Position numbers and translations under genes: made by a program. Below the pieces are notes generated by a model. It did not search any database. It was not told the origin of the DNA and saw only the letters and a list, made by a program, of their open reading frames with translations. Source: Octopus sinensis (Eukaryota). From it: a DNA stretch of 37,845 nt. Below are positions 5,844-36,684 of this stretch, one piece after another; the first letter of the stretch is position 1, and each line of letters starts with the position of its first letter. Where the stretch lies: contig NW_021835922.1 of NCBI RefSeq assembly GCF_006345805.1, positions 1 to 37,845 of the forward strand. The letters run 5' to 3'.

Positions 5844-6720
5844 GAGACTGTTAGAGTGGAATGTGAAAGTAAAGAGTGGTTTAACATCAAGAAAGGAGTT
5901 AGGCAAGGGTGTCTTCCTTTACTTCTCTGCTTTAACCTCAACTCAAAGAAAGTGATGCAGAGGTCAGCCAATTATCTTGGTTAGGTTACTGTCAGCATCA
6001 GCAGTTGGTGGGTTAATAACCTTTGTTATGCTAATGATATTGTGCTGATTGCTACCTTGCTAGCTGAGCACTAGAGCTTGATTAACAAAGTTGGCTGAAT
6101 CTGTAACACATTTCAACTAGATCAGCACCAAAAAAACCCAAAGTTATGACAACCACCAGGAACCAGATGAACTTACTATGCAATACTGGTGGGTAATGCA
6201 AACCCAGATTGACAAGCTTGACTACCTGGGTTCCATTGTTGATCAAACAGCAGACTGTACCCAGGAAATCAGGGTAGGACTAGGTGTAGGAAGATCAGCC
6301 CTAAAGGCATTCAATAAAATATGGGGAGACTGAAACTTCTGAAAGCCCTGGTCAGACCAGTAATGTTGCACAGATGTAAAACATGGACCCTAAGTGCAGC
6401 TGACACCAAGCAGCTGTGATTGCTCAAGATAATGTGCAACAAGCATGTGTTGCAAATTGGTTGGGTTAGTAAAACCAACAATTCAGTCTTGGAGATGGGA
6501 GAAAATCAAAATCTGGAAATGGTCAGAGAAGAAAAACTATAATATTTTTGCAACATAATCAGGACTCAGAACCTTTGTGCCCACTTCCTCAGGGTTGGAA
6601 AACAGGCTTACTGGCAACAAAGACAAAGATGGAGCAATGACCTCAAGGGTTTCACAAGGTGGACCATAGTGGTGTATATAGGTGTAGCAAAGAATGGTGG
6701 TTGTATGTAAGAACTTTGCA
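5844..6720 (+). pseudogene. Old RTE-clade LINE reverse-transcriptase remnant
   Basis: Translates EWFNIKKGVRQGC..., NNLCYANDIVLIA (decayed YADD), ...DYLGSIVDQTADCTQEIRVGLGVGRSA..., ...PVMLHRCKTWTL..., with stops and frameshifts. Absent from the ORF track. Confidence 0.85.
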
Positions 6721-8653
6721 CTACAAACATGAGGACATGAATACCATAATACTCAGAAATATATGTTTTTACTAGCTTTGAGAAAAACTATCACTTTTCA
6801 TGTATATATTATAGCAACTTAAAAATTTAAAGTATTGCCTAAAATATGTTTAGCCATAGAAAATAATTAGTGTAAGTAAGGAAATGTATTTGAAAATACA
6901 TAGAATACAAAAAATATTATAAAGAATAATGCACTATATTTTGTCTAATGCATTTTTCAGATTTAGTTAAGTGGATATTTTACTTATGATCTAGTCTCAA
7001 TTAAAGCAAAAAGAAAAGAAATAAAACATTTATTGGTTTTGTAACAAGTGAGTGTTAAACTTCCCTTCTCTTACATGTAAGAAGTAAGAACATTTGAAAT
7101 ACAGTCAGTTAATTTAAATTTATTGATTTATTCAATATTAAATTCCTGAGTTTATTTACATTTTCAAAAAGGGAAAAAATGTCATGGTTAAAATTTTTTA
7201 TATATTGTTCAATATTATAAATTTCTTCAACAAAATAATGGTCTAAACATATTTTGCATGGTAATTTTAAATTTTATTTTATTTTTGACAAGAAATAAAT
7301 GGTAAATATAAGTTCAAATGTAATTTTATTTATATGTTTCTTACTGGTTTACACTCACCACCTCCACTTCTCATACTTCCATGAACAAGCTGATTTATTT
7401 TCTACAGTAATTGTTTTTGTTTAGCTTTGTGTACATTTGAATAGCCTTCCTTAAGAGGCAGGAGTAGAATTTGTGTTTTAGTTAGTTAAGGAGATTTAGG
7501 GCCACAACACAATGACAACCGGAAAAAGTTACCCTTATGGTCACATACATGGTTTGCAATCCAGCACCTTAATTTCACAGCCTTTGTGTTTCTCTATTGG
7601 AAAATATTTATAATTGAACAAGAAGATATTTTGAAATTAAAAAAATCAAAAGCAAACCAAAAGTGTTTAAAATTACAAAATATCTTAATAATTATTTCAA
7701 AACAAAATAAATATGATTGATTCATTAAGCATTTAGAGAGTAGACTACCTGAAATCACCTCTGAGTTCTATGATATTAAACACGTTTTAACTCTAAGCCT
7801 TGTTATGCTTTCTCTTTATGAATCTTTTAAGCCTGTAAGAAACTAAATTTTGAAATGCCAGTTAGTCCAGTATTAAAAAACCATAATATATCTATTGCAT
7901 GGAACTGGATGAAATTTGTGTGATTGATGTATAGTGTGAATGTGGGTTTTTTTTCTTTTTGTCATATCACTCACTTGTCCAGGTAAGTTGATTACATATA
8001 GTTGTTTTCACATGTATTATCATGGTACTGATTCCTGGCTACTGATTTCCTGTCTCAGATCTGAATTTACACTCCAATTAATCTCTACATTTTGGGAGCT
8101 GCCAAATTTCTATAAGAAACAGTGCTCCAAAATATGTCATCATCTCTTCCAATTAAAAATTTTGTAAGGTCCAACAAATGAGGCTATTTTCTCTCGTTAT
8201 AATAAATATACTGTCTTCATAAAACTACATATGTGTAGAGATCCTACATTTAAAATATATCAGAAAATGAATGCTTGCTTTCTGTTAGTTTTTACCATTC
8301 ACTAATGAAAGTATCAATGCAATTTCAACTATATATTTCCACTCCTACTCAGAATTGATAAATTCCAATATCAGTTAGCTAAATCAATTTTAATTAAAGC
8401 CAGCAATAAAAACAATAAAGTCAAAAAGCAGAGTTTTATGGGATTTAGTTTTATCCTTCTATATTCCTTCCAACTTGAGTAGTAGACTTAATCTGAAGTT
8501 TTGTTTAGTACTATTAACTAGCTTTTGTGCAACCTTAGCAGAGTATAATCTATTGCAACCAATCAAGCCAGATCATTAGTCAGAGGATAATTCCCTACAT
8601 TTGAGTCCTGAAGACTTTGCAAAGGATCATGAGTGTTGATCTTCTTGCCTTAA

Positions 8654-13066: not shown

Positions 13067-13291
13067 TACATATGAATATATATATATAATGATATATGTA
13101 TTTATATATATATATAAGATATATATATAAAAAATTTGAAAAAAAACACCTTTTATCAATTCAAAATGAACAATTAAATTACACCATCTAGAAAATGACA
13201 TATAATACAAATATAAAATTAAAATAACAATAAAATGTCAATGATTAAGTAAATTGCAAAAAAATAATAAAAACGTATATAATTGGTAGAA

Positions 13292-13380
13292 TAAGGACAC
13301 GTGTTTCATGGCTATATTTAAGAAATGATTATAGTAGTTGTGAAATCACTTCGATATAAATATAGTCACTCATCAGGTTA
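13292..13380 (-). ncRNA. Hammerhead ribozyme (type I), damaged copy in the inverted arm
   Basis: Minus strand: taac CTGATGA gtgactatattta...taaatatagccat GAAA cacgt GTC ctta. The first stem I pair is a C-C mismatch and the first stem II pair is G-U. Confidence 0.75.
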
Positions 13381-13434
13381 AAAATAAACTAGAATAATAA
13401 AATAATTAATTAATAAATATACTTTAATTATATA

Positions 13435-13476
<42 letters not shown>

Positions 13477-13988
13477 ATACTAAATATACATAAGTGAAAA
13501 CTAAAACAATACTTAAATTATTAAATACTTTAAAATTAAATAAAATACACAAAGCTAGTACAAGTCATTAAATTGTAATCAAAATAAGAAATATAGACAA
13601 ACTCCTTAAATAAGCTAACTATATAATAACTATACATGTGTAGTATCTATAGATTTAATATAAAAATCTATAACAAAGTTGACTAAATATCAAATAATAT
13701 AATACCTAATTAACTTAAAATTTAATATTACAAATAAATAAGCCACCTAATAATTAAATAATATATTGTCTGGCGAAATTAATTCTTAAATCAAATTAAA
13801 TGTAATACATTAGATCCCTTTATATATAAAAAAATATATATATATTTAAAAAAAAAGAGATGCAAGAATTAATATCTACAGTAACTTTTATCTATCAATA
13901 TATATAAAAAGATATAATGGCGAGAATAATATGTTAATGGAAAGTAAGAAAACCTATCAACCCCAAAATTATGGAATGGTTGGGTTTT

Positions 13989-14504
13989 ACCCAACCATTC
14001 CATAAAATTAATGAAAATCTTACATATATTAATGCTTATAGTAATCATCCACCTTCTGTTAAAAAATCTTTGATAAATAATGTAGGTAAAAGAATATCAT
14101 TACTTTCTTATGATTTAGAGACTTTTAATAAGCATGCACCTTATTATAATAAAGCCCTGAATGAGGCTGGATACAATAATAATATTAAATTCTTTAATAT
14201 TTGTAAACGTAATTATAATTTAAAAGATAATTTTTTTAATGATTTTTATAATGATAAACCTAATTGTCTGTATTATGATAGGTCTTATTTAGGTACTTAT
14301 CATCTTAATAATAATAGGAATTTTGATGATGGAAATCTTAAATCTAATATTAGAATAAAAAATAAAAAGTATCGTAATAATAATTAAAATAAAAATATAA
14401 ATAAAAATAAGATTAAATTTAATTCAGTTAATTAAGATAATATATTTAATAATATTGCAAATAATTATAGTAATAATAATGATAGTTATAATAATAATTA
14501 TAAG

Positions 14505-14564
<60 letters not shown>

Positions 14565-15310
14565 TATAACTATAATCATAATATAAAAGATATAAATAAA
14601 AATAAAATTTGGTTAATCATTCCTTTAGGGACTCTGGTTAAAACAGATCTTATAAATGAGATTTTAGATATAATTGAAGTATTTATTAGGGATAATAAAA
14701 AATATAATATTTTTTCTAAAGATAATTTGGGAGTAGGTTATTCAACTACTAATAATATTGGTAATATTATTTCTTTATGTAATATTTTTAAATTAAAGAA
14801 ATTTTATAAAGATAGATTAAATAATAATTATAATTATAATAATAAAAACCAAGAGTTGATTTGTTGTACATGTAGGGATAAGTCTACATGTAAAGTGAAA
14901 AATTATTGTAATTTAGATAATGTAGTCTATAGGTGTAGGGTAACTATAATGGATGATAAGAATTTGAATCATCATAATTTAAATACTATTTATATAGGGT
15001 CTACTTCGAATAAAATTAAAACTAGAATTTCCCAACATATGTATTCTTTTAGGAATAAAAATCTTATAAATTCAACAGATCTCAGTAAATATATTTGTGA
15101 CCTTAAATTTAGATCTATTAAATATGAATTAAATTGGGATATAATTGGAGGGCTAAATCATATACTATAGAGAGTAATAGTTGTTCTCTTTGTAATAACG
15201 AATTTAGGGAAATATTATTTCATAACAGTTGTGCGTTGGTAAACTCTTTGGACGAACGTAAAATTAAATGTAAACATAAATTAAAGTACCTTTATAATAG
15301 ATTTAACTGA
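13989..15310 (+). pseudogene. Penelope-like RT C-terminus, Asn-rich linker, Cys-rich finger and GIY-YIG endonuclease
   Basis: YINAYSNHPPSVKKSLINNVGKRISLLS...YNKALNEAGY; KIWLIIPLG...NIFSKDNLGVGYS; CTCRDKSTCKVKNYCNLDNVVYRCRVT...IYIGSTSNKIKTRISQHMYSF...TDLSKYI. After a frameshift near 15150: CSLCNNE...KCKHKLKYLYNRFN*. Track ORFs 13971 and 14727 are in the same frame. Confidence 0.92.
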
Positions 15311-17566
15311 TAAATAATTATATTATTTTTAAAAAAATATTATAGTAATATAAATTATTTTCAACATAATATATATGTATTTGATTTGATTACTTATTAT
15401 TTAGACTTTAAATTTATAGTAAATAGTCTTTTAAATTAAATATTTTAATTTTATGTACTTATATATTACATTTAACTTATCTTTAATATTATTAAACCTT
15501 ATTTTGTCTTTTGTGGCTTATTTATTTTATTGTAGATATTATTTAATAGTATTAGAGTATTTTTTACTGTTTTATTATAAGTTATATTTTAAACAAAATG
15601 ACGAATATTTGTTGATGGTGAGTTTGAGATGAGTTTTGGGCTTCATGTGTTGGAGACTATGGGAAGGGTTGAAAGGTAGGGGGATAGTTGGCTGTGAATT
15701 AATTTGGTGTTAGTTGACAGTTTGTTGTAGATTCGATTTTGGTAGTGATGGTAATAATTAATAATGATATTAATAATGATAATAATTATGTTGATAATTA
15801 TAATATTAATAATAATAATATTTATAATCACGTACGGCTTGTTGTAGGGCCCGGGTAGTATTGATGAACAAGTAATACTTAATATACTATTTTTACTATT
15901 TTTATTAATTTTATTTGATTCATGAAGCCTAGATAATTCCCTATTTCATTAATAAATTCCTTTTAGCCTTTTTCATTAATAATTTTTATTCCACGCAACG
16001 TCTCCACGAGTTTTACTTCTTACAGATGCTAAAAACTATTATTTATGTTTATAATCTAGCGATATCTTCTCAACTAACTTAGCAACGTTCTTTTCTTCTT
16101 TTCGTTTGGATTTTGTATTATTTTGGGATTAATGTTTAGCTGTGATTAATATTATTATTGATATATTAATAGGTGTCTGTTAGTTTTAGTTGGGTGTCTT
16201 CATATTAGTTTCTCCATAAGTTGTGTTTTTCTCACATTTCTTTAGTTCATGAGGCTTTAATGTTTTTCTGTTTTTTCGTATTTTTCATTGATAAAAAATC
16301 TTGCCATTTTCATTGAGTATTTATTCTATTTCTTTGCACTAAGTCTCCACACGATAAATTTTATAAACGCTTTAACTATTTTGCTTTAAAAATCGGTTAC
16401 TCTTTTACTTCGCAAAGCTAAATTTGACATTTTACTGTTTCTCTATTTCATTTGAATTTTGAATCATTGTGTGTTTGAAATATTATTAATATTGTTGTTG
16501 TTATTATTATCATTGCTGTAATATTATTATTTATTTATAGTTTCTTGATAGTATTTTTTACGTTCGATATTGGATATGATATCTTTTAATTATTATATAG
16601 GAATTTAACGTTTTACATATTATTCAATTTGAGAATTAATATAGTTAGACTATATTTCTTTTAATAATTAGATAATATTTTCATTAAATAGTATTATTTT
16701 TAAATAAACTAGTTTTTATTATAATATAAATTTCATGTTTAACTTTTTTATCATGTGATATATTAAATCTATAGATATTATACATGGATATTAATATAAC
16801 TAGTTTATATAATGGATTTGAGTATATTTGAACTATTTCCAATTTTTGATTGTATTACTCATAAAGAGGAATTGTATTGGGTATATTAATTAGATGCTAA
16901 AACATATTAATACATTTAAAATCCAGATAGATTAACTTAATCATTGAACTTAGTAATTTAGTTTGTTTATCAATATTAGTTAGATCTTGTTATTATTTTG
17001 AGTTTGATCATTGTTATTATTGTTATTGTTATTGACTGGTTTTGTAGAGGACAGGTGATTGTGATTGTACATCTTCACAGTGTATTGTTCTTTGATTCTA
17101 ATATTTTTGCACTTTTCTTTAATTTTGGAGTTGATATGTTTTCTTACTTTCCATTAACATATTCTCGTCATTATATCTTTTTATATATATTGATAGATAT
17201 AAGTTACGGTAGATATTAATTCTTATATCTCTTTTTTTTTAATATGTATATATATTTTTATTTTTAAAGGGATCTAACGTATTACATTTAATTTAATTTA
17301 AGAATTAATTTTGTCAGACAATATATTATTTAATTATTAGGTGGCTTATTTATTTGTAATATTAAATTTTAAGTTAATTAGGTATTATATTATTTGATAT
17401 TTAGTCAACTTTGTTATAGATTAATATATCAAATCTATAGATACTACACATGTATATTTATTATATAGTTAGCTTATTTAAGGAGTTTGTCTATATTTGA
17501 ACCATTTCTTATTTTGATTACAATTTAATGACTTGTACTAGCTTTGTGTATTTTATTTAATTTTAA

Positions 17567-17780
17567 CCCTTTCATTACCAACCCGGCTGAAACCGGCTCT
17601 GAATACAAATGTCTTGTTTTCATAAGTTTTGAATTAAAATCTTCCACCAAACCTTAGTCACAATTCATGTCCCTAACACCAGCTTAATGATAACTAAGTT
17701 ATTTTACTAAATTCTTTGTTATATTTAAAGTAATTGAAAGAAACACAGAACATCTCAAAATAAATACAGTAACGAAAGGG
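17567..17780. mobile_element. 214-bp piggyBac-type MITE with demonstrable TTAA target duplication
   Basis: TTAA|CCCTTTCATTAC...GTAACGAAAGGG|TTAA. The left inverted arm (~13521-13560) shows the empty site with a single TTAA. Confidence 0.95.
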
Positions 17781-17907
17781 TTAAAGTATTTAATAATCTA
17801 AGTATTGTTTTAGTTTTCACTTATGTATATTTAGTATTTTCGTATATATATATATATTAAAGTATATTTATTAATTAATTAATTATTTTATTATTCTAGT
17901 TTATTTT

Positions 17908-17996
17908 TAACCTGATGAGTGATTATATTTATATCGAAGTGATTTCACAACTACTATAATCATTTCTTAAATATAGCCACGAAACACGTGTCGTTA
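17908..17996 (+). ncRNA. Hammerhead ribozyme (type I) in the Penelope pLTR, intact core
   Basis: Stem I taac(17908-11)/gtta(17993-96). Core CTGATGA at 17912-18. Stem II gtgattatattta/taaatatagccac. GAAA at 17981-84. Palindromic stem III acacgtgt. GTC cleavage triplet at 17990-92. Confidence 0.88.
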
Positions 17997-18255
17997 TTCT
18001 ACCAATTATATACGTTTTTTATTATTTTTGTGCAGTTTACTTAATCATTGACATTTTATTGTTATTTTAATTTTATATTTGTATTATATGTAATTTTCTA
18101 GATGGCGTAATTTAATTGTTCATTTTGAATTGATAAAAGGTGGGTTTTTTCTAATGTTTTACATGTATATATTATATTGTGTGAAATTTGGTTTAGTATT
18201 TCTAAATTGAATTTTTTTCCTTGTAAGTTTGGATTTTATTCCCTCAAATAATAAT

Positions 18256-18457: not shown

Positions 18458-19691
18458 TAAACTTCCTTTCTTCTCCAACAACAACTTCCGGGCCTTCACA
18501 GCAAGTTACAAAAACATTTTTTATCTCATTATCTTTCGTACCTCACTCGTGCTCATTCGTGCTCATTCGTTACTTCTCATTCGTGCTCATTCGTTACTAT
18601 TGTTAAATGTCTGTACTCATAGAGTAACTTGCTTATCTTTCTCTCTACGAAATTTAACCCTCTTTAACGTTCAATCCTTAATTCCATCTTTCCGCCATTC
18701 GCCAATTTTAAACTTCCTTTCTTCTCCAACAACAACTTCCGGGCCTTCACAGCAAGTTACAAAAACATTTTTTATCTCATTATCTTCCGTACCTCACTCG
18801 TGCTCATTCGTTACTTCTCATTCGTGCTCATTCGTTACTTCTCATTCGTTACTATTGTTAAATGTCTGTACTCATAGAGTAACTTGCTTATCTTTCTCTC
18901 TACGAAATTTAACCCTCTTTAACGTTCAATCCTTAATTCCATCTTTCCGCCATTCGCCAATTTTAAACTTCCTTTCTTCTCCAACAACAACTTCCGGGCC
19001 TTCACAGCAAGTTACAAAAACATTTTTTATCTCATTATCTTTCGTACCTCACTCGTGCTCATTCGTTACTTCTCATTCGTTACTTCTCATTCGTGCTCAT
19101 TCATTACTATTGTTAAATGTCTGTACTCATAGAGTAACTTGCTTATCTTTCTCTCTACGAAATTTAACCCTCTTTAACGTTCAATCCTTAATTCCATCTT
19201 TCTGCCATTCACCAATTTTAAACTTCCTTTCTTCTCCAACAACAACTTCCGGGCCTTCACAGCAAGTTACAAAAGCATTTTTTATCTCATTATCTTTCGT
19301 ACCTCACTCGTGCTCATTCGTTACTTCTCATTCGTGCTCATTCGTTACTATTGTTAAATGTCTGTACTCATAGAGTAACTTGCTTATCTTTCTCTCTACG
19401 AAATTAACCCTCTTTAACGTTCAATCCTTAATTCCATCTTTCCGCCATTCGCCAATTTTAAACTTCCTTTCTTCTCCAACAACAACTTCCGGGCCTTCAC
19501 AGCAAGTTACAAAAACATTTTTATCTCATTATCTTTCGTACCTCACTCGTGCTCATTCGTTACTTCTCATTCGTGCTCATTCGTTACTATTGTTAAATGT
19601 CTGTACTCATAGAGTAACTTGCTTATCTTTCTCTCTACGAAATTTAACCCTCTTTAACGTTCAATCCTTAATTTCATCTTTCCGCCATTCG
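18458..19691. repeat. ~250-bp satellite, about 5 units
   Basis: taaacttcctttcttctccaac starts at 18458, 18709, 18964, 19219 and 19459. Length variation comes mostly from ctcattcgtg / ctcattcgttactt subrepeats. Confidence 0.97.
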
Positions 19692-19696
19692 GCGGT

Positions 19697-19946
19697 GCCC
19701 CCGCCCTCCCACCCCCACTACCGGTGAACACTTCTCACCCCCGCCCTCCCACCCCCACCACCAATACCGGTGAACACTTCTCACCCTCGGCCACCAATAC
19801 CGGTGAACACTTCTCACCCCCACCACCAATATCGGTGAACACTTCTCACCCCCACCACCAATACCGGTGAACACTTCTCACCCCCACCACTAATACCGGT
19901 GAACACTTCTCACCCCCACCACCAATACCGGAGAACACTTCTCACC
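19697..19946. repeat. ~31-bp minisatellite
   Basis: About 7 copies of ccccaccaccaataccggtgaacacttctca. Confidence 0.93.
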
Positions 19947-20393
19947 ATCTACACCGGATATGCCCTCTTTCCTCCTCCTCCCCCACCACCATTGCGTGTG
20001 TCTCTCCCTCCTACCCCTCCTTCCCACATGCTTTCACTGTGTACTACCCCTTCCCCCCACCAAGACAAGCTGCTAGCACCGCAGCTCATTAACTGCCCCA
20101 CTGATCTTACGTTACCTCCTGTTTAGAATCTGTCACTGCCTCAATCCAACTATCTCCTTCCAGTCCCCTCCCCGTCTCGTGATATCCTACGTTTTTATTT
20201 CTTCTGCACCAACCCTTCCTTGTCATCGTTCCTCCTTACCCAACCTTCCCCACTGGTGCTTCCCTATATTACCTGCACCCCCCACTATCTCTCCCTCTCT
20301 TTCCACTGGTGGAACCTTTCTCAGCTAGACCCCCCCCCAACTCAACTCTAAAAAAGCTCGAACCGATTGCGACCGATGCCGGACCCCCCAGCC

Positions 20394-21422: not shown

Positions 21423-21762
21423 TACTCACTCTCGGCCTCACTCTGTCTCTCCCTCCCTCTTCCGATTACCACTCGCTTAGCCAAGACTTTCACCAACACC
21501 ACTACATATAAACCAGCGCATGCAGAAGATGCTCTCCTTTAAACTTCCTAGTTCGAGTTAACCGCAACATATTAAGTTGCTATTGTTCCTATCCTTTGTC
21601 ATCCTTGGTTGTCTCCCATGAACACTTCTAAAGGCTTTATGCCACCCCTACTCCTACTTAGGGCTATCTCCTATGTAAGGTAGTGATCATATAGAGCAAA
21701 AATATGATAGTGTAGCATATGAAGGTTCAACTGAAGGCTATTGTATTGTTTGTTTATGAATT

Positions 21763-24700
21763 ATGCCAAATGCTAGCTTTCTTTTCAGGTACATGAAGCT
21801 ACTGTCCCCCATTCCAGGGTCTCACGGGCCCATACTTCCCACACCCTCAGGGTTGGCACTCTCAACATTGGCACACTGAAAGGTAGGTCCACTGAGATTG
21901 TTGAGATGCTTGAACAGAGACGTGACAATATGTGCTGCATCCAAGAAGTAAGGTGGAGAGGAGGTTCTGCTAGGTTCCTCCACAGGCAAAGAACACAGGT
22001 ACAAGATTTTCTGGGCGGGGAACACTGACAGGGTCGGGGGCATGGGTATACTTCTTGCTGAGAAATGGGTAGATAAGGTAATCGAGGTAGTCAGAGTATG
22101 CGACAGAATACTTAAGATTACATTAGTGCTGCATCATGGGTTAGCAACCATTATATCGGCCTATGCCCCTCAGCCAGGGCTACCCGATGGACAGAAAGAC
22201 TGATTCTATGACACCCTCTTGCAAACTACCTCATTGATGAATGACCGGGACCTTCTCTTTGTGGCTGGTGACTTCAATGGACATGTTGGACAACATACAG
22301 GTGGGCTTCCATGGCATACATGGAGGCTATAGTTACGGTTCCCGCAAAGAGGAGGGAACCAGGCTGCTGGAGTTCTGCGATGCAAATGATCTTATTGTTT
22401 GCAATACTAACTTCAGGAAACCTGCCAGTCACCTAGTCACCTACAGATCTGGCAGACACACTAGCCAAATTGACTACATCTTCGCCAGAAAAAGGGAAAG
22501 ATGGCTGCTTATAAATGCCAAAACCTTCCCAGGCAAAGAATGTACCCCACAACATACACTGGTAGTTAGTGACTTTAGGATCAGGGCTAAGTGGATGCCC
22601 AGAAGGCGACCAGCATGGAGGAGAAAGGTCTGAAGCTTAAAGATTCTACGAAGGACAGAGATTTAGAGACATATTACTCAAAGCCTTTGACGAAATAGAA
22701 GCGGATATAGCTTCACACGGTGTAGAAGACAACTGGAGCTTTCTACGGGACAACCTGCTGAGAGCCACTGACCAGATCTGTGGATGGTGCAAAGTCCCCT
22801 CTTGACCCAAAATAACATGGTGGTGGAACAATGTTGTTATTGGAGAAAAGAAACACACTTGGAAGGACTGTGGCAGGGAATTGTATTACTCTGCCAGAAG
22901 GGAAGCTAGGAGACAGATTTTTTTAGCCAGAGGGGAAGCAGATAAGAAAAAAATTTGCCAATGTTCTGCACTGTGTAGACCAAAGACTTGAGGTATTTCA
23001 TGTTGCAAGACAGTAAAGAATCATGATGTTGTAGGAGAGAAATGTGTCCGCATGGATGATGGTTCTCTTGCACTAAATGAGGGTGCAAAGAGAAAAGTTT
23101 GGAGACGCCACTATGAAAGGTTGCTCAATAAAGAGAATGAATGGGAGAAAGAGAGTCTGCCGAATGTCGACCAAACAGAGGGACCTGCTATCCGAGTTGA
23201 CAGTACCTTGGTAGATAAAGCAATTAAGAGTATGAAGACAGGGAAAGCCCCGGTCCATCAGGAATTACTGCAGAGATGCTCAAGATATATCTGGCAGTGT
23301 CAGCTATAGCCTAGTCACCCGTATAGTTAACCAGGTGATACACGAAAGAGTCATACTCAATGACTGGTGTAGCAGCATAATAGTCAACTGCTACAAAGGT
23401 AAAGGTGATGCTTTAGATACAAATAATTACAGAGGTATCAAGTTGTTGAATCAGGTAATGAAGGTCATGGAGAGGGTCATAGCCCAACTAATTAGGGAGT
23501 GAGTCAGTTTAGATGAGGTGCAGTTTGGGTTCATGCCAGGGAAAAGCACCACTGATGCTATATTTCTGGAGGAGAAATACCTAGCCAAAGATAAACCTCT
23601 GTACCTCGCTTTCGATGACATAAAGAAAGCCTTTGACAGGGTCCCCCGATCCCTTATCTGGTGGTCAATGAGGAAACTAGTGATAGATGGATGGTTGGTG
23701 AGAGCTGTGCAAGCCATGTATAGGGATGCTGTCAGTAAGGTGAGGGTTGGCAACAAGAACAGTGAAGAATTCCAGGTAGAGGTAGGGGTCCACCAAGGTT
23801 CAGTCCTCAGCCCCCTCCTATTTATCACAGTTCTCCAGGCAATAACAGAGGAATTCAAGACAGGATGCCCCTGGGAGCTCCTCTATGCTGACAACCTTGC
23901 TCTCGATTTGCTGAATTACTATCAGAACTAGAGGAAAAGTTTCAAGTGTGGAAACAAGGATTAGAATTGAAGGGCCTTAGAATCAACCTAGCTAAAACCC
24001 AAGTCCTATTAAGTAGGAAGGCAGGCGAACCACAAATCCCTTCAGGTAGATGGCCCTGCTGGATCTGTAGAAAAGGTGTAGGTAGAAACTCCACATGGAC
24101 ACATAAGAGGTGCAGCAATATCAAAGGAAGGCTAACTGGGAAGATAGTTTTTATATGTGGCAGATGCTCAGGTGCAATAAACACTGAAAATATGCAGAGA
24201 ACAACTTCTGCCACATTACAGGGAAAAAAAATAGAAGTAGTTGATAGCTTCCGTTACCTAGGTGACCAAGTCAGTAGCAGGGGAGGGTGCACTGAAAGTG
24301 TAGCTGCTAGAATATGAATAGCCTGGGCAAAGTTCAGAGGGCTCTTACCTCTGCTGGTGACAAAGGGCCTCTCATTCAGAGTAAAAGGTAGACTGTATGA
24401 TGCATGTGTACGAACAGCCATGCTACATGGCAGTGAAACATGGGCTGAGGACATGCGTAAGCTCGCAAGGAATGAAACCAGTATGCTCCGATGGATGTGT
24501 AATATCAGTGTACATACTCGACAGAGTGATAGTACCTCGAGAGAAAAGTTGGACCTAAGAAGCATCAGATGTGGTGTACAAGAGAGACGACTGCACTGGT
24601 ATGGCCATATGGCAAGAATGGATGTGGATAGCTGTGTGAAAAAGTGCCACACCCTAGCAGTTGAGGGAACATGTGGAAGAGGTAGACCCAGGAAGACCTA

Positions 24701-29259: not shown

Positions 29260-31170
29260 GTTAGATGAGAAGGGGGGGAGAGTTGAGACCAAATGGTGTG
29301 AAAGAGTGAAGATTAATTCCTGTTCACGGCGCAAACGGGAATCCGGATGGCCTCTGTGCAAGGACAATCCAAACACAGACAGGTGTTGCAAGGAGTGACC
29401 GGTGGAGCGGAAATGGCGTGAGACCGGTGTGTTGTTGGCAAGGCGGATGTCACGGAGGTGTTCCACGAACCAGTCAGCCAAGCGGCGTCCCGTTTGTCCG
29501 ATGTACAGGGAATGGCAGAGAGAGCAGGAGATGCAATAGATGATATTGCTGGAGGTGCAGGTGAAGGAGTTGATGATGCGATAGATTCAATGATGGGTGC
29601 CAGTGAGGAGGGTGGTGTTGGAGAGGTATGGGCAAGTGCGGCAACGTGGGCGGGAGCAGGGGAACGAGCCAGGTTGGGACGTAGGGTCAGGGAAGGAGCT
29701 GTGGACCAAGAGGTCTCGTAGGTTATGGGCTCGTTTGAAGGAGGGGTTGGTTAGGGAAGAGGTGTGAAGTGGACGGGTCGGACTGGAGAATCCGGAAAGC
29801 TCGAAGAACGCTGCGTTGGAGAGGTAGGGTCGTGGGGTGGTAAGTGAGGGAAAAAGGGAGGCGAGAGACTACAGGGCAGGTTCGGTGGGAGAGAGCAGAT
29901 GCACAGCCTACGGAACGTGCTCTGGCAAGGGCGGTGTGGATAGTGGTGAGGGGGTATCCACGTAGGATGAAGTGGCGAGCCATGAGTTGAGACTGAGTCT
30001 CAAAGTCATGGTCGTCACTACAGAGCCTACATAGACGGAGAAATTGGGAATAGGGGATGGAAAGCTTGGTGTGTTTGGGTGGGAGGAGGAGAAGTTTAGG
30101 TATGAGTGTGAGTTTGTGTGTTTGTAGTGAATGGAGGTGGTAAGAGTGGAGTGATGAATGCTGACCGAAATGTCGATGAAGGAGATAGAGGTGTTGAAGA
30201 TAGTGGAGGTGAAGTGGAGGGCAGGATGGAAGGATTGAACGAAAGAGAGAAAGGAATCTAGATGTTCACGGGAGAATGAGGTGGCACCGATAATGTCGTC
30301 AATGTAACAACCGTATAGTTCGGGAGTGGGACCAGTGAAACTAGAGAATATTTGGGCCTCAACATAGCCAACGAACAGGTTCGCATAGTTGGGGCCCATT
30401 CGCGTTCCCATGGCCACTCCCGACTACTGTTGGTAGAACTCGCCCGCGAACGAGAAGCAGTTAAGAGAAAGGACAAGTTCGGCCAGACGAATGAGTGTGG
30501 AGGTGTCGGGTTCGGAGTTAGGGCGGAGGTCGAGAAAGTGTTGAAGTGCCCGCAGTTCTTCGTGGTGAGGGATGACGGTATAGAGGCTCTGGATGTCCAT
30601 TGTAAAAAGTATTTTGGAGGAGCCGGGAGGAAAGGAGAAAGAGTTGAAAAGCCGGAGAGTATGGTTGGTGTCGTGGATGTTGGAGGGAAGAGACGCCACT
30701 AGGGGGGCAAGGACACGGTCGAGGTATTTCGAGATGAGCTCCGTGGGGCAGTTACAGGCGGAGACGATGGGGCGGCCAGGGTTGTTGGTTTGTGGATTTT
30801 GGGGAGGAAGTAAATGGTGGGGGTGCGTGGGATTCGCACAATGAGGTTGGATGCGGTGTGGGGGAGACGGGAGGACGAGATGAGGTCGTGGACAGTAGAG
30901 GATACCGTCTGTTGGTAGCTACGCATGGGGTTAGAGGACAGAGGGGAGTAGAAGAAGCTGTCATTGAGTTGGCGGAGCGCCTCGGCCCTGTAGAGGTCCG
31001 CGCACCACACCACCACAGCTCCACCCTTGTCAGCCGGTTTGATGATAATGTCAGCGCGCCGTTGGAGAGAACGAAGAGCCGAGAGCTCGGCCGGGGAGAT
31101 GTTGAGGCAGCGGTGGCGCCTGGAGAAGTTGAACCGCTCCAACGCACGCTGACAGGCGCCCACGAAAGAT
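29260..31170 (-). pseudogene. Penelope RT and GIY-YIG endonuclease, disrupted
   Basis: IIIKPADKGGAVVVW; YFLPKIHK; PGRPIVS; LFTMDIQSLYTVIPH; GVAMGTRMGPNYANLF; YIDDI; SYLNFSSSHP; CSRPRCRTC; NIIYCISCSLCHSLYIGQTGRRLADWFVEH...REQELIFTL. Confidence 0.95.
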
Positions 31171-31197: not shown

Positions 31198-32626
31198 TTT
31201 CATTTAATTTTTTTTTCATTTCATCTAGTTTCAGCTCGCGAGCTGTGGCCATGCTGGGGCACCGCCATTTGGTGTTGCTACATGATTTTGCTTCACAAAT
31301 GCTTTTTAGCAATTGACATTTGGTGCATGAGAGAGTTTGACGCAGCTGCCCTCATCTGCACCTCCTGCCGCGAAGTTGGTTCATCTGGGACACCTGACAG
31401 GAAGAGATCCAATTTTATTTTAAAGACATCTGCATCCACCCCATGCAGGTCTCTCAGGTCCTTCGGGAGGATATTGAAGAGCTGTGGTCCTCTGAAGCCC
31501 AGGCTATCACAGTATCTTGTCCTACATCTTGATGGCAAATTTGGAGTCCTTGGCACTATGCAGTGGCGCCCAATTCTAGTATTTGTGTAACTCTCGATGC
31601 CAAAGTTTGGGACAAGTCCTTCCAGGATCTTCCAGATGTATATTATGGCATATCTTTCTCGCCTATGCTCTAAGGAATGGAGTCTCAATCTCTTGGGTCT
31701 TTCCCAATAGCTTATATGCTGCACAGAGGCTATCTTCTTCGTGTAGCTTCGTTGGATAGCCTCAAGTTCTGTGATTAATTTGACACTGGTTGGTGACCAT
31801 AGCTGAGAGCAATAGTCAAAGTGGCTTTCGACAAGTGTCCTCCAGAGGACCATCATGGTTTCCTTGTCTCTTGTTCTAAAGGTTCTAAGAATCCATGCGG
31901 TCAGCCGCCTACATTTCATTGCCAATTTAGCAACATGCACATGAAAGGTTGCATCATTACTCATGTAAATACCCAGGTCTCGTACTGATTGTGCCTCTGG
32001 GATTGCAATCCCTCCAGGTCCAGTGTATTTATTGGGTATTGCATTTAGTTTTGCATGCTGATAGCATAAAGCTTGAAACTTTTCAGCATTGAACTGCATG
32101 CTATTCTTTTCAGCCCACTTGTATATTTTTCCAGCTCACATTGCAGGTGCTTAGTGTCTTCAGGGTTCTGTATTGCCTGTGAACCTTGTATCATCTGCAT
32201 AACTTGTGATCATGGCTCTCTGCGTGGCTGAGGGCATGTCTGAGAGGGCCATTATGAACAGTAGCGGTCCCAAAACAGTGCCCTGCAGAACACTGCTCAC
32301 TATTTGCGTGTTAAGTCATGAAGCCATTCTCCCAATTTTCCAACTATGCCAAGATCACGCAGTTTGGACATATCTTCCATGATCGACTTTATCAAGGCCT
32401 TTGCAAGTCGATATATCACTCACTTCCACATTTGAGTGTTGGTTTGTTTCAGTACCCAGTCATAGTGTTCAGTACCCAGTCATAGTGTTGTAGGAGCTGA
32501 GTTAGGCAGCTTCTTCCTGGTCAGAAACCATGTTGGGTGTCAGGCAGAAAGTTATTTTCTTCAAGGAAGGCGATTAGTTTCCTTCTGAGTATTCGTTCCA
32601 TGACCTTGCTGATTTGTGAAGTCAGA
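31198..32626 (-). mobile_element. 5'-truncated CR1-group LINE (RT and C-terminal domain, ORF 31293-32099)
   Basis: LTSQISKVMERI; QHGF*PGRSCLTQLL; QGTVLGPLLF; YADD; MQFNAEK; RDLGI; DYCSQLWSP; LEAIQR; SLEHRRER; FKIKLD; then a short 3'UTR and A-rich tail. Confidence 0.93.
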
Positions 32627-32933
32627 GGACTCCAAATTTGCCATCAAGATAGCTCTTCAATATCCTCCCAAAGAACCTAAGAGACCTGCATGGGGTAGAT
32701 GCAGATGTCTTTAAAATGAAACTGGATCTCTTCTTGTCAGGTGTCCCAGATGAACCAACTTCACGGCAGGAAGTGCAGATGAGGGCAGCTGCAGCATCGA
32801 ACTCTCCTCAGCACCAGATGGCATTTGCTAAAAAGCATTCGTGAAGTAAATCATGTAGCAACACCAAATGGCGGTGCCCCAGCATGGCCACAGCTTGTGA
32901 GCTGAAAACTAAATGAAATAAAAAAAAATAAAA
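32627..32933 (+). mobile_element. Second CR1-group 3' end, inverted relative to the first
   Basis: Aligns to the reverse complement of 31198-31550 with scattered substitutions and an ~40-nt internal deletion. Confidence 0.92.
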
Positions 32934-33235: not shown

Positions 33236-34521
33236 CTGGTGACTAAAGGCCTCTCGCTCAGAGTAAAAGGCAGACTGTATGATGCGTGTGTATGAAACAC
33301 AGCCATTCTCATGGCAGCGAAACATGGGCCGTGACTGCTGAGGACATGCGTAAGCTCGTGAGGAATGAAGCCAGTATGCTCCGATGGATTGTAATGTCAG
33401 TGTACATACTCGACAGAGCGTTAGCACCTTGAGAGAAATGTTGTACCTAAGAAGCATCAGTTGTGGTGTGCAAGAGAGACGATTGCGCTGGTATGGTCAT
33501 GTGGCGAGAATTTATGAAGATAGGTGTGTAAGAAAGTGCCAATCCCTAGCAGTTGAGGGAACCCGTGAAGAAGGTAGACCCAGGAAAACCTGGGACGAGG
33601 TGGTGAAGCACGACCTTCGAACTTAGGCCTCACTGAGGAAATGACCAGCGACCGAGACCTTTGGAATATTCTGTACGTGAGAAGACCAGGCAGGACAAGT
33701 GAGCCCAGCCCACTTATGAATGCCTTTCCTCCCTTGGACACAAAGACCTGTTGAGGCAAGCGAAGTCGATATAGAACCTCATCCGACGACAGACACCCCA
33801 TGCCAACCCCCATGCTTGCGAAGACATGTTGGGGCAAAGCGAAATCGAAATCGAAACCGAATTGAACCAGCCAGGATCCTGGCCTGGTGGTACGTAAAAA
33901 GCACTATCCGACTCGTGGCCGTGGCACATAAAATACTCCAATGCGACCGTACGACAGGCAACCCATGCCAACCCCCTTTGCTTGTGAAGACATGTTGGGG
34001 CAAGCGAAATCGAAATCGAATTGGACCAGCCAGGATCCCTGGTCTGGTGGTACGTAAAAAGCACTATCCGACTCGTGGCCGTGGCACGTAAAATACTCCA
34101 ATGCGACCGTACGACAGGCACCCATGCCAACCCCCTTTGCTTGTGAAGACATGTTGGGGCAAGTGAAATCGAAATCGAATTGGAACCAGCCAGGATCCCT
34201 GGTCTGGTGGTACGTAAAAAGTACTATCCGACTCGTGGCCGATGCCAGCACCGCCTCGATGGCTTCTGTGCCGTGGCACATAATACACCAATCTGACCGT
34301 GGCCGTTGCCAGCCTCGCCTGGCACCTGTGCAGGTGGCACGTAAAAAGCACCCCACTACACTCACGGAGTGGTTGGCGTTAGGAAGGGCATCCAGCTGTA
34401 GAAACATTGCCAGATTAGACTGGAGCCTGGTGCAGCCTTCTGGCTTCTCAGAACCCCGGTCGAACCGTCCAACCCATGCTAGCATGGAGAACGGACGTTA
34501 AACGATGATGATGATGATGAT
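33236..34521 (+). mobile_element. 5'-truncated RTE LINE with expanded 3'UTR
   Basis: [19 protein letters not shown]...[12 protein letters not shown]...GRPRKTWDEVVKHDLRT, then a repeat array and the (GAT)n tail. Confidence 0.93.
33788..34241. repeat. ~160-bp tandem repeat (about 2.8 units) in the RTE 3'UTR
   Basis: catgccaacccc at 33799, 33964 and 34123. Internal (cgaaat)n. Confidence 0.92.
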
Positions 34522-34842: not shown

Positions 34843-35239
34843 CTAGCAGTATCGCCCGGCGTTGCTCGGGTTTGTAAGGGAAATAATTATATAAGCATTT
34901 TTAGAGATGTAAAGTATAATAGCCATCTCAATATGGCTAACCACAAAGGGGGAGGGGCGTTACTGTAGCTTTTTACGTTCTGAGATTTAATAATAAATTT
35001 TAGAGAGTTACTTCCCTTATATATGTCAAAAATGGATTAAAAATGGGGAAAAATTGATGGTAAATTTTTTTTTAAATCGTAGACTCATCGTAGACGCGCG
35101 CTAATACCCAGACGGTCTCGATATGAATCACGACTATAAGATACCCGGTTTTGGTTAAACTGCACCGCAAAATGTGGGAGTAGTTTAGGAATCTAAATCG
35201 TAGGAGACAGACACACAACCTCACTTTTATATATAAAGA
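34843..35239 (-). mobile_element. Non-autonomous Helitron, 397 bp
   Basis: Minus strand A|TCTTTATATATAAAAG ... CCCGAGCAACGCCGGG hairpin, cgatactg, CTAG|T. This gives 5' TC, 3' CTAG, a subterminal hairpin, insertion between A and T, and no TSD. Confidence 0.9.
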
Positions 35240-35301
35240 TTTCCTCTATTTAACATAATATTGAGGTCTCTTTCTTTCTTTTGTTATCTTACTGTTTTTA
35301 C

Positions 35302-35337
<36 letters not shown>

Positions 35338-35346
35338 TATATATAG

Positions 35347-35666
35347 TTACAGAGATGTACTTGCATAGCAAGTGACTTGATCTGAGATCGTGTGCTGGAA
35401 CGAAAACAGTTGCAGCGTTGAAGGTGTTTATAAGCCATTTAAGAAACACACAAAAACCGTTAGATTCACTTCAACATTTAAATTAATTTGTCAAAATATT
35501 TTCGTCGCTTTGAGACCGCGACCTGTTAGCACGATATTTTTGTCAGTGAACAGGTCGCGGTCTCAAAGCGACGAAATTTTTGGCAAATTAAATTTAAATG
35601 TTGAAGTGAATGTAACGGTTTTTTGTGTGTTTCTTAAATGGCTTACAAACACCTTCCACGCTGCAA
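35347..35666. repeat. Foldback element: 118-bp inverted arms (35410-35527 / 35549-35666) with a 21-bp spacer; probably Penelope pLTR-derived
   Basis: ttgcagcg...gcgacctgtt is mirrored by aacaggtcgc...cgctgcaa. The left copy extends ~60 bp further. Flanked by (TA)n. Confidence 0.9.
35539..35587 (+). ncRNA. Candidate hammerhead variant with G3:C8 core swap
   Basis: TTTGTCA GTGAACA G GTCGC ggtctcaaa GCGAC GAAA TTTT TGGCAAA. The mirror copy (35487-35527, minus strand) supplies GAAA ATATTT TGACAAA. Confidence 0.6.
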
Positions 35667-35684
35667 TATATATATACACATATA

Positions 35685-35720
<36 letters not shown>

Positions 35721-35769
35721 TGTATGTATGTAGTGTGTATATGTGTATGCATGTATGTGTGTGTGTGTG

Positions 35770-35984
35770 CGTGTCTGTGCTTGTGATTGTCCACCACTGC
35801 TTGACAACGAATGTTGGTTTGTTTACATCCCTGTCACCTAGTGGTTTGACAAAGGAAACAGATAGAATAAGTACAATGCTTACAAAAATAAAACTGGAGT
35901 TGATTCATTAAACTACAATTCTTCAAGGCATTGCCCCAGCATGGCCACAGAGCAATGGCTGGAAAAAGCAGAAGAATAAAAGAA
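35770..35984 (+). mobile_element. 3' half of the 25744-family SINE
   Basis: gcttgacaac...gatagaataagtac...cttcaaggcattgccccagcatggccacag. Confidence 0.8.
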
Positions 35985-35985
35985 T

Positions 35986-36162
35986 TGAGGGGGACCTCTA
36001 CATGGTAGCTAGACCTGGTAGAAATAGCAGCAAAATTTCCCCCAAATCACACCTTACTGTCTTATCTATGTATATATGTATGTATGAGCCTATGAGGGAG
36101 ACCCCTACATGGCAGCTAGACATGGTAGAAATAGCAGCCAAATCTCCCCTTACTGTCTTATC
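35986..36162. repeat. Two diverged ~75-bp copies of a dispersed-repeat fragment
   Basis: tgaggg..acc.ctacatgg.agctagac.tggtagaaatagcagc.aaat...ccttactgtcttatct occurs twice. A related reverse copy lies near 11545-11600. Confidence 0.75.
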
Positions 36163-36212
36163 TTTCTGCTACTTGGATATAGGTGTTATATTCGTCTAAA
36201 AAAACTTTCCTG

Positions 36213-36252
36213 TCGCACACTCACGCGCGCGCGCACGCACGCACACACGCAC

Positions 36253-36302
<50 letters not shown>
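36213..36302. repeat. (CG)/(CA)n microsatellite
   Basis: cgcgcgcgcgcacgcac followed by a long CA run. Confidence 0.93.
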
Positions 36303-36305
<3 letters not shown>

Positions 36306-36684
36306 AGCTTACAATTTTATTTATATATTTGCGTGTGTATGTGTTGAAAGAGGAAGTGGGAGGCAGAGTGAAAGAATCACTCACTACAGTAAGCGAATTA
36401 CTTTCATTTTATTCGTTGCCCACTGTGTGTGTGCGTTTGCGTGTAGTGTAAACCAGACTAAGAAAAGCATTTGACACACACACCAGAATGTGAGTTTTCT
36501 GTAAATTTTGCTTAATTGGAGTTTAAATTTTGAAAACTGGACCTGGCATGACGCGATGCATTGTACTCTTAAAACTGCTAGGTAAATTGTAATTGAAGAA
36601 ATCCTATATTGTAGATTTGTATAACTCCCAAAGGGAGGCAGATAAAATCTGCCTTTTATAATAAGAGATATATACATATATATG

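What the first reader, a model, noticed from the sequence alone, without database searches (positions are those of the whole stretch)
35487..35587. Candidate hammerhead with a compensatory G3:C8 core swap, hidden in a foldback repeat
Seen: 7-bp stem I (UUUGUCA/UGGCAAA; perfect UGACAAA in the mirror arm), then GUGAACA, an extra G, a perfect 5-bp stem II (GUCGC/GCGAC, G10.1-C11.1) and GAAA. The mirror arm adds a palindromic AAUAUU stem III and a UUU cleavage triplet. Known: C3 and G8 form a Watson-Crick pair in the active hammerhead, and the swapped pair can restore activity. GUGAACA is exactly CUGANGA with both partners exchanged, so standard CUGANGA searches would miss it. Neither arm is complete: the right lacks 2 nt of stem III and the left lacks the core 5' end. 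Inference: a dispersed family carrying a natural core-variant, probably dimer-acting, ribozyme.
Basis: partly seen in the sequence, partly recalled or inferred. Interest (0 to 1): 0.8.

Follow-up and report, generated by a model that had tools for sequence, protein, structure and literature searches.

The report
Core-swapped hammerhead in Penelope retrotransposon
This stretch is a damaged copy of a short motif carried at both ends of a Penelope-type jumping gene with thousands of copies in this genome; the motif is likely a self-cutting hammerhead RNA whose key core base pair is naturally reversed, a form we found in print only as a laboratory mutant, but cutting is untested.

Summary
The motif is real. 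It is the terminal-repeat (pLTR) hammerhead of a Penelope-like element (PLE): 4,097 exact genomic matches, present in both pLTRs of a full-length RT+GIY-YIG copy, 56 nt upstream of the ORF start, and the only hammerhead-like motif in that element. Most copies carry the complete AAUAUU helix III, so no two-arm reconstruction is needed. G3:C8 is the family state (81 of 85 copies chosen without the core). At the same place the two sister PLE families of this genome carry C3:G8 and U3:A8; 9 of 9 related lineages pair 3 with 8 (shuffle p 0.002). The foldback is an ordinary PLE 5' inversion, later captured by a 1.83-kb non-autonomous Helitron (about 590 copies). The window copy itself is probably dead: helix III is damaged and the foldback is 58 kcal/mol more stable. 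Cleavage is untested; RNA data were uninformative. Natural G3:C8 was not found in the literature searched, but two key papers could not be read. This scan noted unverified G3:C8 candidates behind PLE RTs in two other genomes. Verdict: new variant of a known kind.

The parts
35539..35587 (+). Type I minimal hammerhead motif with G3:C8 core (damaged copy: helix III reads AUUU instead of the family's AAUAUU)
35546..35553 (+). Core 5' strand G3-U4-G5-A6-A7-C8-A9 plus the extra G between 9 and 10.1
   Evidence: G3:C8 in 81 of 85 copies chosen without reference to the core
35528..35667 (+). 5'-truncated forward pLTR fragment of the Penelope-like family; ends at the shorter of the family's two 3' ends; holds the ORF's first ATG at 35638
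   Evidence: 115 of 125 aligned bases identical to L162:2858-2986; ORF start in L162 at 2957
35346..35527 (-). Inverted pLTR fragment, truncated inside the core (keeps A6 onward), with the ~60-nt tail found at one end only
   Evidence: 165 of 178 aligned bases identical to L162:2868-3048; two classes of 3' ends
35304..35345 (.). (TA)n microsatellite on the left of the PLE insertion; a TA-rich run also follows 35667 (likely target site)
   Evidence: most copies end in (TA)n or (TAA)n
34843..36668 (-). 1.83-kb non-autonomous Helitron composite that carries the foldback as cargo: 5' TC, 3' CTAG, 16-nt GC hairpin 34855-34870, inserted between A and T
   Evidence: ends seen in 27 and 28 of 30 loci with constant A|T flanks except one tandem junction; shared span; 591 matches of the cargo junction

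Best explanation
The motif is the pLTR hammerhead of a Penelope-like retrotransposon family, with a G3:C8 pair in place of C3:G8, and it likely cuts the element's RNA slowly after the UUU triplet as a dimer, while the window copy is a probably inactive passenger inside a Helitron. Shown: position in both pLTRs of an RT+GIY-YIG element, 4,361 nt apart, cut site 56 nt before the ATG; family-wide G3:C8; C3:G8 and U3:A8 at the same place in sister families. Inferred: stems I and II fold within each copy; two copies in one tandem transcript (or two transcripts) exchange their self-complementary AAUAUU strands to make helix III; G3 pairs with C8 and so holds the 2'-OH of residue 8 at the scissile bond; because the A-U-only helix III is marginal, the element's own protein probably helps, as reported for the Anolis PLE. 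The cut would trim read-through RNA to unit length.
For: Full-length copy L162 has the motif at 2865 and 7226 and no other hammerhead-like motif on either strand. ORF copies of up to 1,042 open codons exist; relatives match RVT_1 (5 of 29) and GIY-YIG (4 of 29). Sister family B (about 56% protein identity) has C3:G8 at the same place, 2,981 matches, including a fully canonical CUGAUGA subfamily (13 of the first 100 listed, counted by eye). Sister family C has U3:A8, 3,414 matches. Six metagenome relatives show C3:G8 (4) or U3:A8 (2). All 9 lineages pair 3 with 8, which the scan did not require (shuffle p 0.0017; 0.0095 by hand calculation without the two motifs picked by eye); all 9 have one extra base before G10.1-C11.1; 8 of 9 have a palindromic helix III. 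Tree: A is sister to B+C (support 100 and 99), outgroups mostly C3:G8, so G3:C8 is a derived double change. Published PLE hammerheads have the extra base, G10.1-C11.1, palindromic 15.2-16.2, and often U17, including a UUU triplet in Crassostrea (PMC4209133). The engineered C3G/G8C double mutant partly restores cleavage in a PLE hammerhead, which needs the PLE protein (PMC11167929).
Against: No cleavage data. The AAUAUU duplex is only -0.2 kcal/mol and the computed minimum-energy dimer does not form it. G3:C8 rescue is only partial in the published mutants. The larger subfamily of sister family B has C at position 9, which suggests a tolerant or weakly selected core. Hammerhead mutants did not affect PLE insertion in vitro and no RNA ends were seen at the cut site in Anolis. 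The nine lineages are related, so the shuffle p overstates independence (about 4 changes of the pair on the tree); of 21 metagenome loci examined only 6 gave a motif, 2 of them picked by eye and one with G12 changed; the rest lacked a 3' flank or showed none. The tree is the quick one (SH-aLRT only).
Confidence: 0.7

Rival explanations
1. The motif descends from an active PLE hammerhead but in this family no longer cuts at a meaningful rate; the fold is kept for another role (protein binding, template recognition, splicing or promoter element) or by recent descent alone.
For: Marginal helix III; low in vitro activity of PLE minimal hammerheads in general (PMC4209133); cleavage dispensable for insertion in vitro; among copies that lost C8, G8 is 15 of the first 30 against about 24 of 100 for a control C, which may mark a once-mobile G3-G8 form that could not pair.
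Against: A double transversion that restores exactly the tertiary Watson-Crick pair of the active conformation, and parallel U3:A8 changes in other lineages, are hard to explain without selection for the active fold; intact-ORF copies all keep G3:C8 (22 of 22).
Confidence: 0.24
2. The window's foldback itself is the working unit: the two arms complement each other to make an active ribozyme or a functional hairpin RNA at this locus.
For: The foldback is kept in about 590 Helitron copies and folds very stably (z -26).
Against: The arms are reverse complements, so only one strand of each arm is hammerhead sense; the foldback is 58 kcal/mol more stable than any fold with stems I and II; such inversions are routine PLE insertion products with varying breakpoints (PMC8557442 Fig. 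2 legend); cargo copies tolerate loss of C11.1 (7 of 28).
Confidence: 0.03
3. Chance resemblance inside a foldback or MITE.
For: No Rfam hammerhead match.
Against: Same position as canonical hammerheads of sister PLE families, covarying stems, 0 hits in 60 shuffles.
Confidence: 0.03

Closest known systems
Minimal type I hammerheads in pLTRs of Penelope-like elements (Cervera and de la Pena 2014, PMC4209133; main text parts 1-2 of 4 and supplement parts 1-2 of 3 read)
   Same: Location in both pLTRs, one extra base between 9 and 10.1, G10.1-C11.1, tiny palindromic helix III, U17 common, many dispersed truncated copies, opposite-strand pairs close together.
   Different: Core pair G3:C8; none of the 56 representatives in Fig. 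S3 has it (C3:G8, U3:A8 and one U3-G8 only). No cephalopod is in that figure.
Natural U3:A8 core variants (PMC4209133; Perreault et al. 2011, PMC3088659, section on core variation read)
   Same: Compensatory change of the 3:8 pair in nature; sister family C here has it.
   Different: G3:C8 needs two transversions rather than two transitions and is not listed there.
Engineered C3G/G8C double mutant (Anolis Poseidon PAc hammerhead, PMC11167929, passages and section 3 part 2 read; review PMC8495972, passages; Martick and Scott 2006 cited there, not read)
   Same: Same base pair; partial rescue of cleavage.
   Different: Laboratory construct; here the pair is the natural state of a family with thousands of copies and intact ORFs.
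Neptune/Nematis-type EN+ PLEs (definition from PMC8557442, passages read)
   Same: RT followed by C-terminal GIY-YIG, C-x3-C-x2-C linker and CCHH residues visible in the ORF, (TA)n insertion bias, 5' inversions, tail at one end.
   Different: Clade not fixed: no reference proteins were available for a tree.
Non-autonomous Helitrons with captured cargo (recalled knowledge)
   Same: 5' TC, 3' CTAG, GC hairpin near the 3' end, insertion between A and T, no target duplication.
   Different: Cargo includes a PLE foldback with the hammerhead in antisense to the Helitron's orientation.

Membership tests
Hammerhead ribozyme, type I minimal (PLE type) | Core U4 G5 A6 ... A9, G12 A13 A14, A15.1-U16.1, H17 | tested here: met
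Hammerhead ribozyme, type I minimal (PLE type) | Watson-Crick pair between positions 3 and 8 | tested here: met
   G3:C8 in 81 of 85 copies; 9 of 9 lineages pair. The consensus letters C3/G8 themselves are not met.
Hammerhead ribozyme, type I minimal (PLE type) | Helix I and helix II with G10.1-C11.1, supported by compensatory changes between families | tested here: met
   note that the scan required these stems, so only the variety of pairs, not their presence, is informative
Hammerhead ribozyme, type I minimal (PLE type) | Self-complementary helix III for dimer formation | tested here: met
   AAUAUU in 22 of 30 and 82 of 110 copies; not met in the window copy (AUUU)
Hammerhead ribozyme, type I minimal (PLE type) | Site-specific self-cleavage | not testable with these tools
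   only contigs of runs guessed to be RNA were available
Rfam hammerhead families | Covariance-model match | tested here: not met
   no hammerhead family at E <= 10; expected for a minimal core variant, lowers only the claim of membership in an Rfam family
Penelope-like element (EN+) | Single ORF with RT and C-terminal GIY-YIG | tested here: met
   Pfam hits only in relatives, none for the protein itself
Penelope-like element (EN+) | Direct pLTRs around the ORF, 5' inversions, tail at one end | tested here: met
   L162 repeats 2339-2989 and 6632-7350
Neptune versus Nematis clade | Placement in an RT tree with reference elements | not tested
   no reference sequences held; linker motif fits both
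Non-autonomous Helitron (carrier of the window copy) | 5' TC, 3' CTAG, 3' hairpin, A|T insertion | tested here: met
Non-LTR retrozyme | Head-to-tail tandem short repeats each with a hammerhead | tested here: not met
   copies are dispersed singles, inversions or ORF-flanking; no tandem array at this place

The most novel reading that the evidence does not exclude
This is the first natural, catalytically active G3:C8 hammerhead family, and three sister PLE families in one genome have each fixed a different Watson-Crick pair at 3:8 (G:C, C:G, U:A), showing that PLE hammerheads are under selection for the active catalytic conformation and that CUGANGA/UUGANAA searches miss whole families, possibly including PLE clades reported to lack hammerheads.
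Probability: 0.5. Interest if true: 0.68.

Novelty: new variant of a known kind. Interest (0 to 1): 0.55.

Why it matters
The 3:8 pair forms only in the active hammerhead fold, and G3:C8 was found in print only as a partial laboratory rescue. A natural family that fixed it, beside sisters with C:G and U:A, gives a ready-made natural series to ask the open question whether PLE hammerheads must cut (their function is unresolved: PMC8557442, PMC11167929). It also shows that standard descriptors and Rfam miss thousands of copies in a single genome. It is not a new ribozyme class, and the window copy itself is likely inert.

Tried and rejected
Rfam scans of the window region and of the intact pLTR: no hammerhead. 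Pfam on the family's own protein: no family; PDB profile search gave one weak RT hit. Sequencing runs: no RNA holder listed; runs are contigs only, four organism codes hold the stretch; laying them showed no molecule ends and no splice joint, which is uninformative. Idea that the two arms complete each other: rejected. Idea of a MITE or foldback transposon: rejected, the arms are PLE pLTR pieces and the mobile unit here has Helitron ends. Search for a C3:G8 form inside family A: none among the first 100 listed of 4,577 nor the first 100 of 285 copies lacking C8. Search for further sister families among 35 more RT-bearing loci found only A, B and C. Literature searches for a natural G3:C8 hammerhead found only engineered mutants (PMC11167929, PMC8495972, PMC3884650). 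Lunse et al. 2017 (about PLE hammerhead variants), Przybilski and Hammann 2007, Martick and Scott 2006 and Scott et al. 2013 were not held, so a prior report there cannot be excluded; the bioRxiv retrozyme preprint was read only in part 1 of 5 and its supplements are closed.

Full report
Observation. The described parts are all present on the + strand at 35539-35587. The window is a whole small contig of a 2.72-Gb genome; the best named protein relative is from Octopus vulgaris at 57% identity, so an octopus host is inferred. The motif lies in the right arm of a foldback of about 128-bp arms (-196 kcal/mol for 35340-35680). A scanner with positions 3, 8 and 9 free finds only this motif in the window and nothing of equal quality in 60 shuffles. 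Rfam does not see it.

The family. An exact pattern of core and stem II gives 4,097 matches, control 0, with several loop II variants. With positions 3 and 8 free there are 4,577 matches, 92 of the first 100 listed being G3:C8 and none C3:G8 (counted by eye). In copies chosen by upstream, downstream or protein sequence rather than by the core, G3:C8 is found in 32 of 35, 27 of 28 and 22 of 22. Helix III is the complete palindrome AAUAUU in 22 of the 30 best matches to the window and 82 of 110 other distinct copies. The window copy has AUUU; whether this is mutation or assembly error cannot be told.

It is a Penelope-like element. Walking upstream of the motif leads to an ORF with RT motifs, a C-x3-C-x2-C linker, and a GIY-YIG domain, ending 0.9-1.1 kb before the motif. 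L162 (G000:C2:32069200-32079199) is full length: repeats at 2339-2989 and 6632-7350 flank the ORF, the motif sits at 2865 and 7226, the ORF starts at 2957, and no other hammerhead-like motif exists in it on either strand. Its ORF is interrupted once; other copies have open frames of 793-1,042 codons. Copies end at two positions about 60 nt apart and join (TA)n, matching the tail and microsatellite bias described for PLEs (PMC8557442; PMC11167929). Head-to-head pairs with varying breakpoints are common, so the foldback is a routine 5' inversion: window 35528-35667 matches L162:2858-2986 and the inverted 35346-35527 matches L162:2868-3048.

The carrier. The foldback plus its flanks recurs as one 1.83-kb unit with 5' TC and 3' CTAG ends on the - strand, a GC hairpin near the 3' end and constant A|T flanks (27 and 28 of 30 loci show the two ends): a non-autonomous Helitron by recalled criteria. 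Its cargo junction occurs 591 times, about one seventh of the family count.

Covariation. Two sister PLE families in the same genome have a hammerhead at the same place behind the ORF. Family B: C3:G8, 2,981 matches, all of the first 100 listed with G8, one subfamily with the canonical CUGAUGA and a larger one with C9. Family C: U3:A8, 3,414 matches. Of 21 metagenome loci of related PLEs examined, 4 gave a motif by scan and 2 by eye; the rest lacked a 3' flank or showed none. Across these 9 lineages the 3:8 pair is G:C once, C:G five times and U:A three times, never unpaired (shuffle p 0.0017); all have one extra G before G10.1-C11.1, 8 of 9 have a palindromic helix III, and stem pairs vary compensatorily, though the scan required stems. 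A quick IQ-TREE tree of 26 rows puts A sister to B+C with C3:G8 outgroups nearby, so G3:C8 is derived and U3:A8 arose more than once (SH-aLRT only, several rows partial). The lineages are related, so the p value overstates the evidence.

Mechanism. Most likely (0.7) the motif cuts the element's RNA after UUU, 56 nt before the ATG, as a dimer of the two pLTR copies or of two transcripts. Stems I and II are the minimum-energy fold of the intact unit, also within 125 nt of context. Helix III is marginal (-0.2 kcal/mol; the computed dimer does not form it), so slow cutting or help from the element's protein is inferred; the Anolis PLE hammerhead cuts only with its protein, and its C3G/G8C double mutant is partly active. 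U17 and the extra base are usual in PLE hammerheads. The main rival (0.24) is a fold kept without meaningful cutting. The window copy is probably inert: the foldback is -179.0 against -121.1 kcal/mol with stems I and II enforced, and its helix III is not self-complementary.

Results against or unexplained. No RNA evidence was obtainable. The C9 form of family B and the dispensability of cutting for insertion in vitro argue for weak constraint. Among copies lacking C8, G8 is 15 of the first 30 against about 24 of 100 at a control C in the same trinucleotide (counted by eye); this may be an old G3-G8 intermediate or a mutation hot spot and was not resolved.

Novelty. PLE hammerheads and natural U3:A8 are known (PMC4209133, PMC3088659). 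Eight searches found G3:C8 only as an engineered mutant; none of the 56 motifs in Fig. S3 of PMC4209133 has it. Lunse et al. 2017 and Przybilski and Hammann 2007 could not be read and may bear on this. Earlier notes of this scan report unverified G3:C8 candidates behind PLE RTs in two other genomes; none exist for this genome or sequence. Verdict: new variant of a known kind, interest 0.55.

Noticed in passing
L164:6660-6715 and about 2,980 genomic copies (family B): The larger subfamily of sister family B has C instead of the conserved A at hammerhead position 9; metagenome locus L208 has C9 together with U3:A8. A second recurring core variant worth testing.
   Followed up: partly
L285-L314: Family A copies that lost C8 carry G8 more often than a control C changes to G (15 of 30 against about 24 of 100); possible relic of a G3-G8 intermediate.
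   Followed up: partly
L162:2820-2845, about 14 nt upstream of helix I: Branch-point-like, pyrimidine-rich and AG sequence resembling an intron acceptor, as in the Drosophila virilis Penelope pLTR; many truncated copies begin near it. No splice joint was seen in contigs.
   Followed up: partly
window 29300-31160 (-): Broken RT and GIY-YIG ORF of a different, distant Penelope-like family (C-rich strand); no hammerhead hit behind it with the scanner used.
   Followed up: partly
window 13112-18177: Long inverted repeats around a very AT-rich interior that holds remains of another RT C-terminus and GIY-YIG domain (13938-15170 +), probably a further PLE with inverted ends.
   Followed up: no
window 18458-19950: Five tandem 255-bp units followed by a 32-bp tandem array; possibly pLTR-like repeats; no hammerhead hit.
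   Followed up: no
window 34843-35241: The composite's 3' part looks like a smaller Helitron with its own TC-type 5' end, suggesting the composite arose by read-through from an upstream Helitron end.
   Followed up: no
window 21700-24000, 31340-32800, 33240-34520: Decayed LINE fragments (endonuclease and RT remains) and a 160-bp tandem repeat before a GAT-tailed repeat.
   Followed up: no
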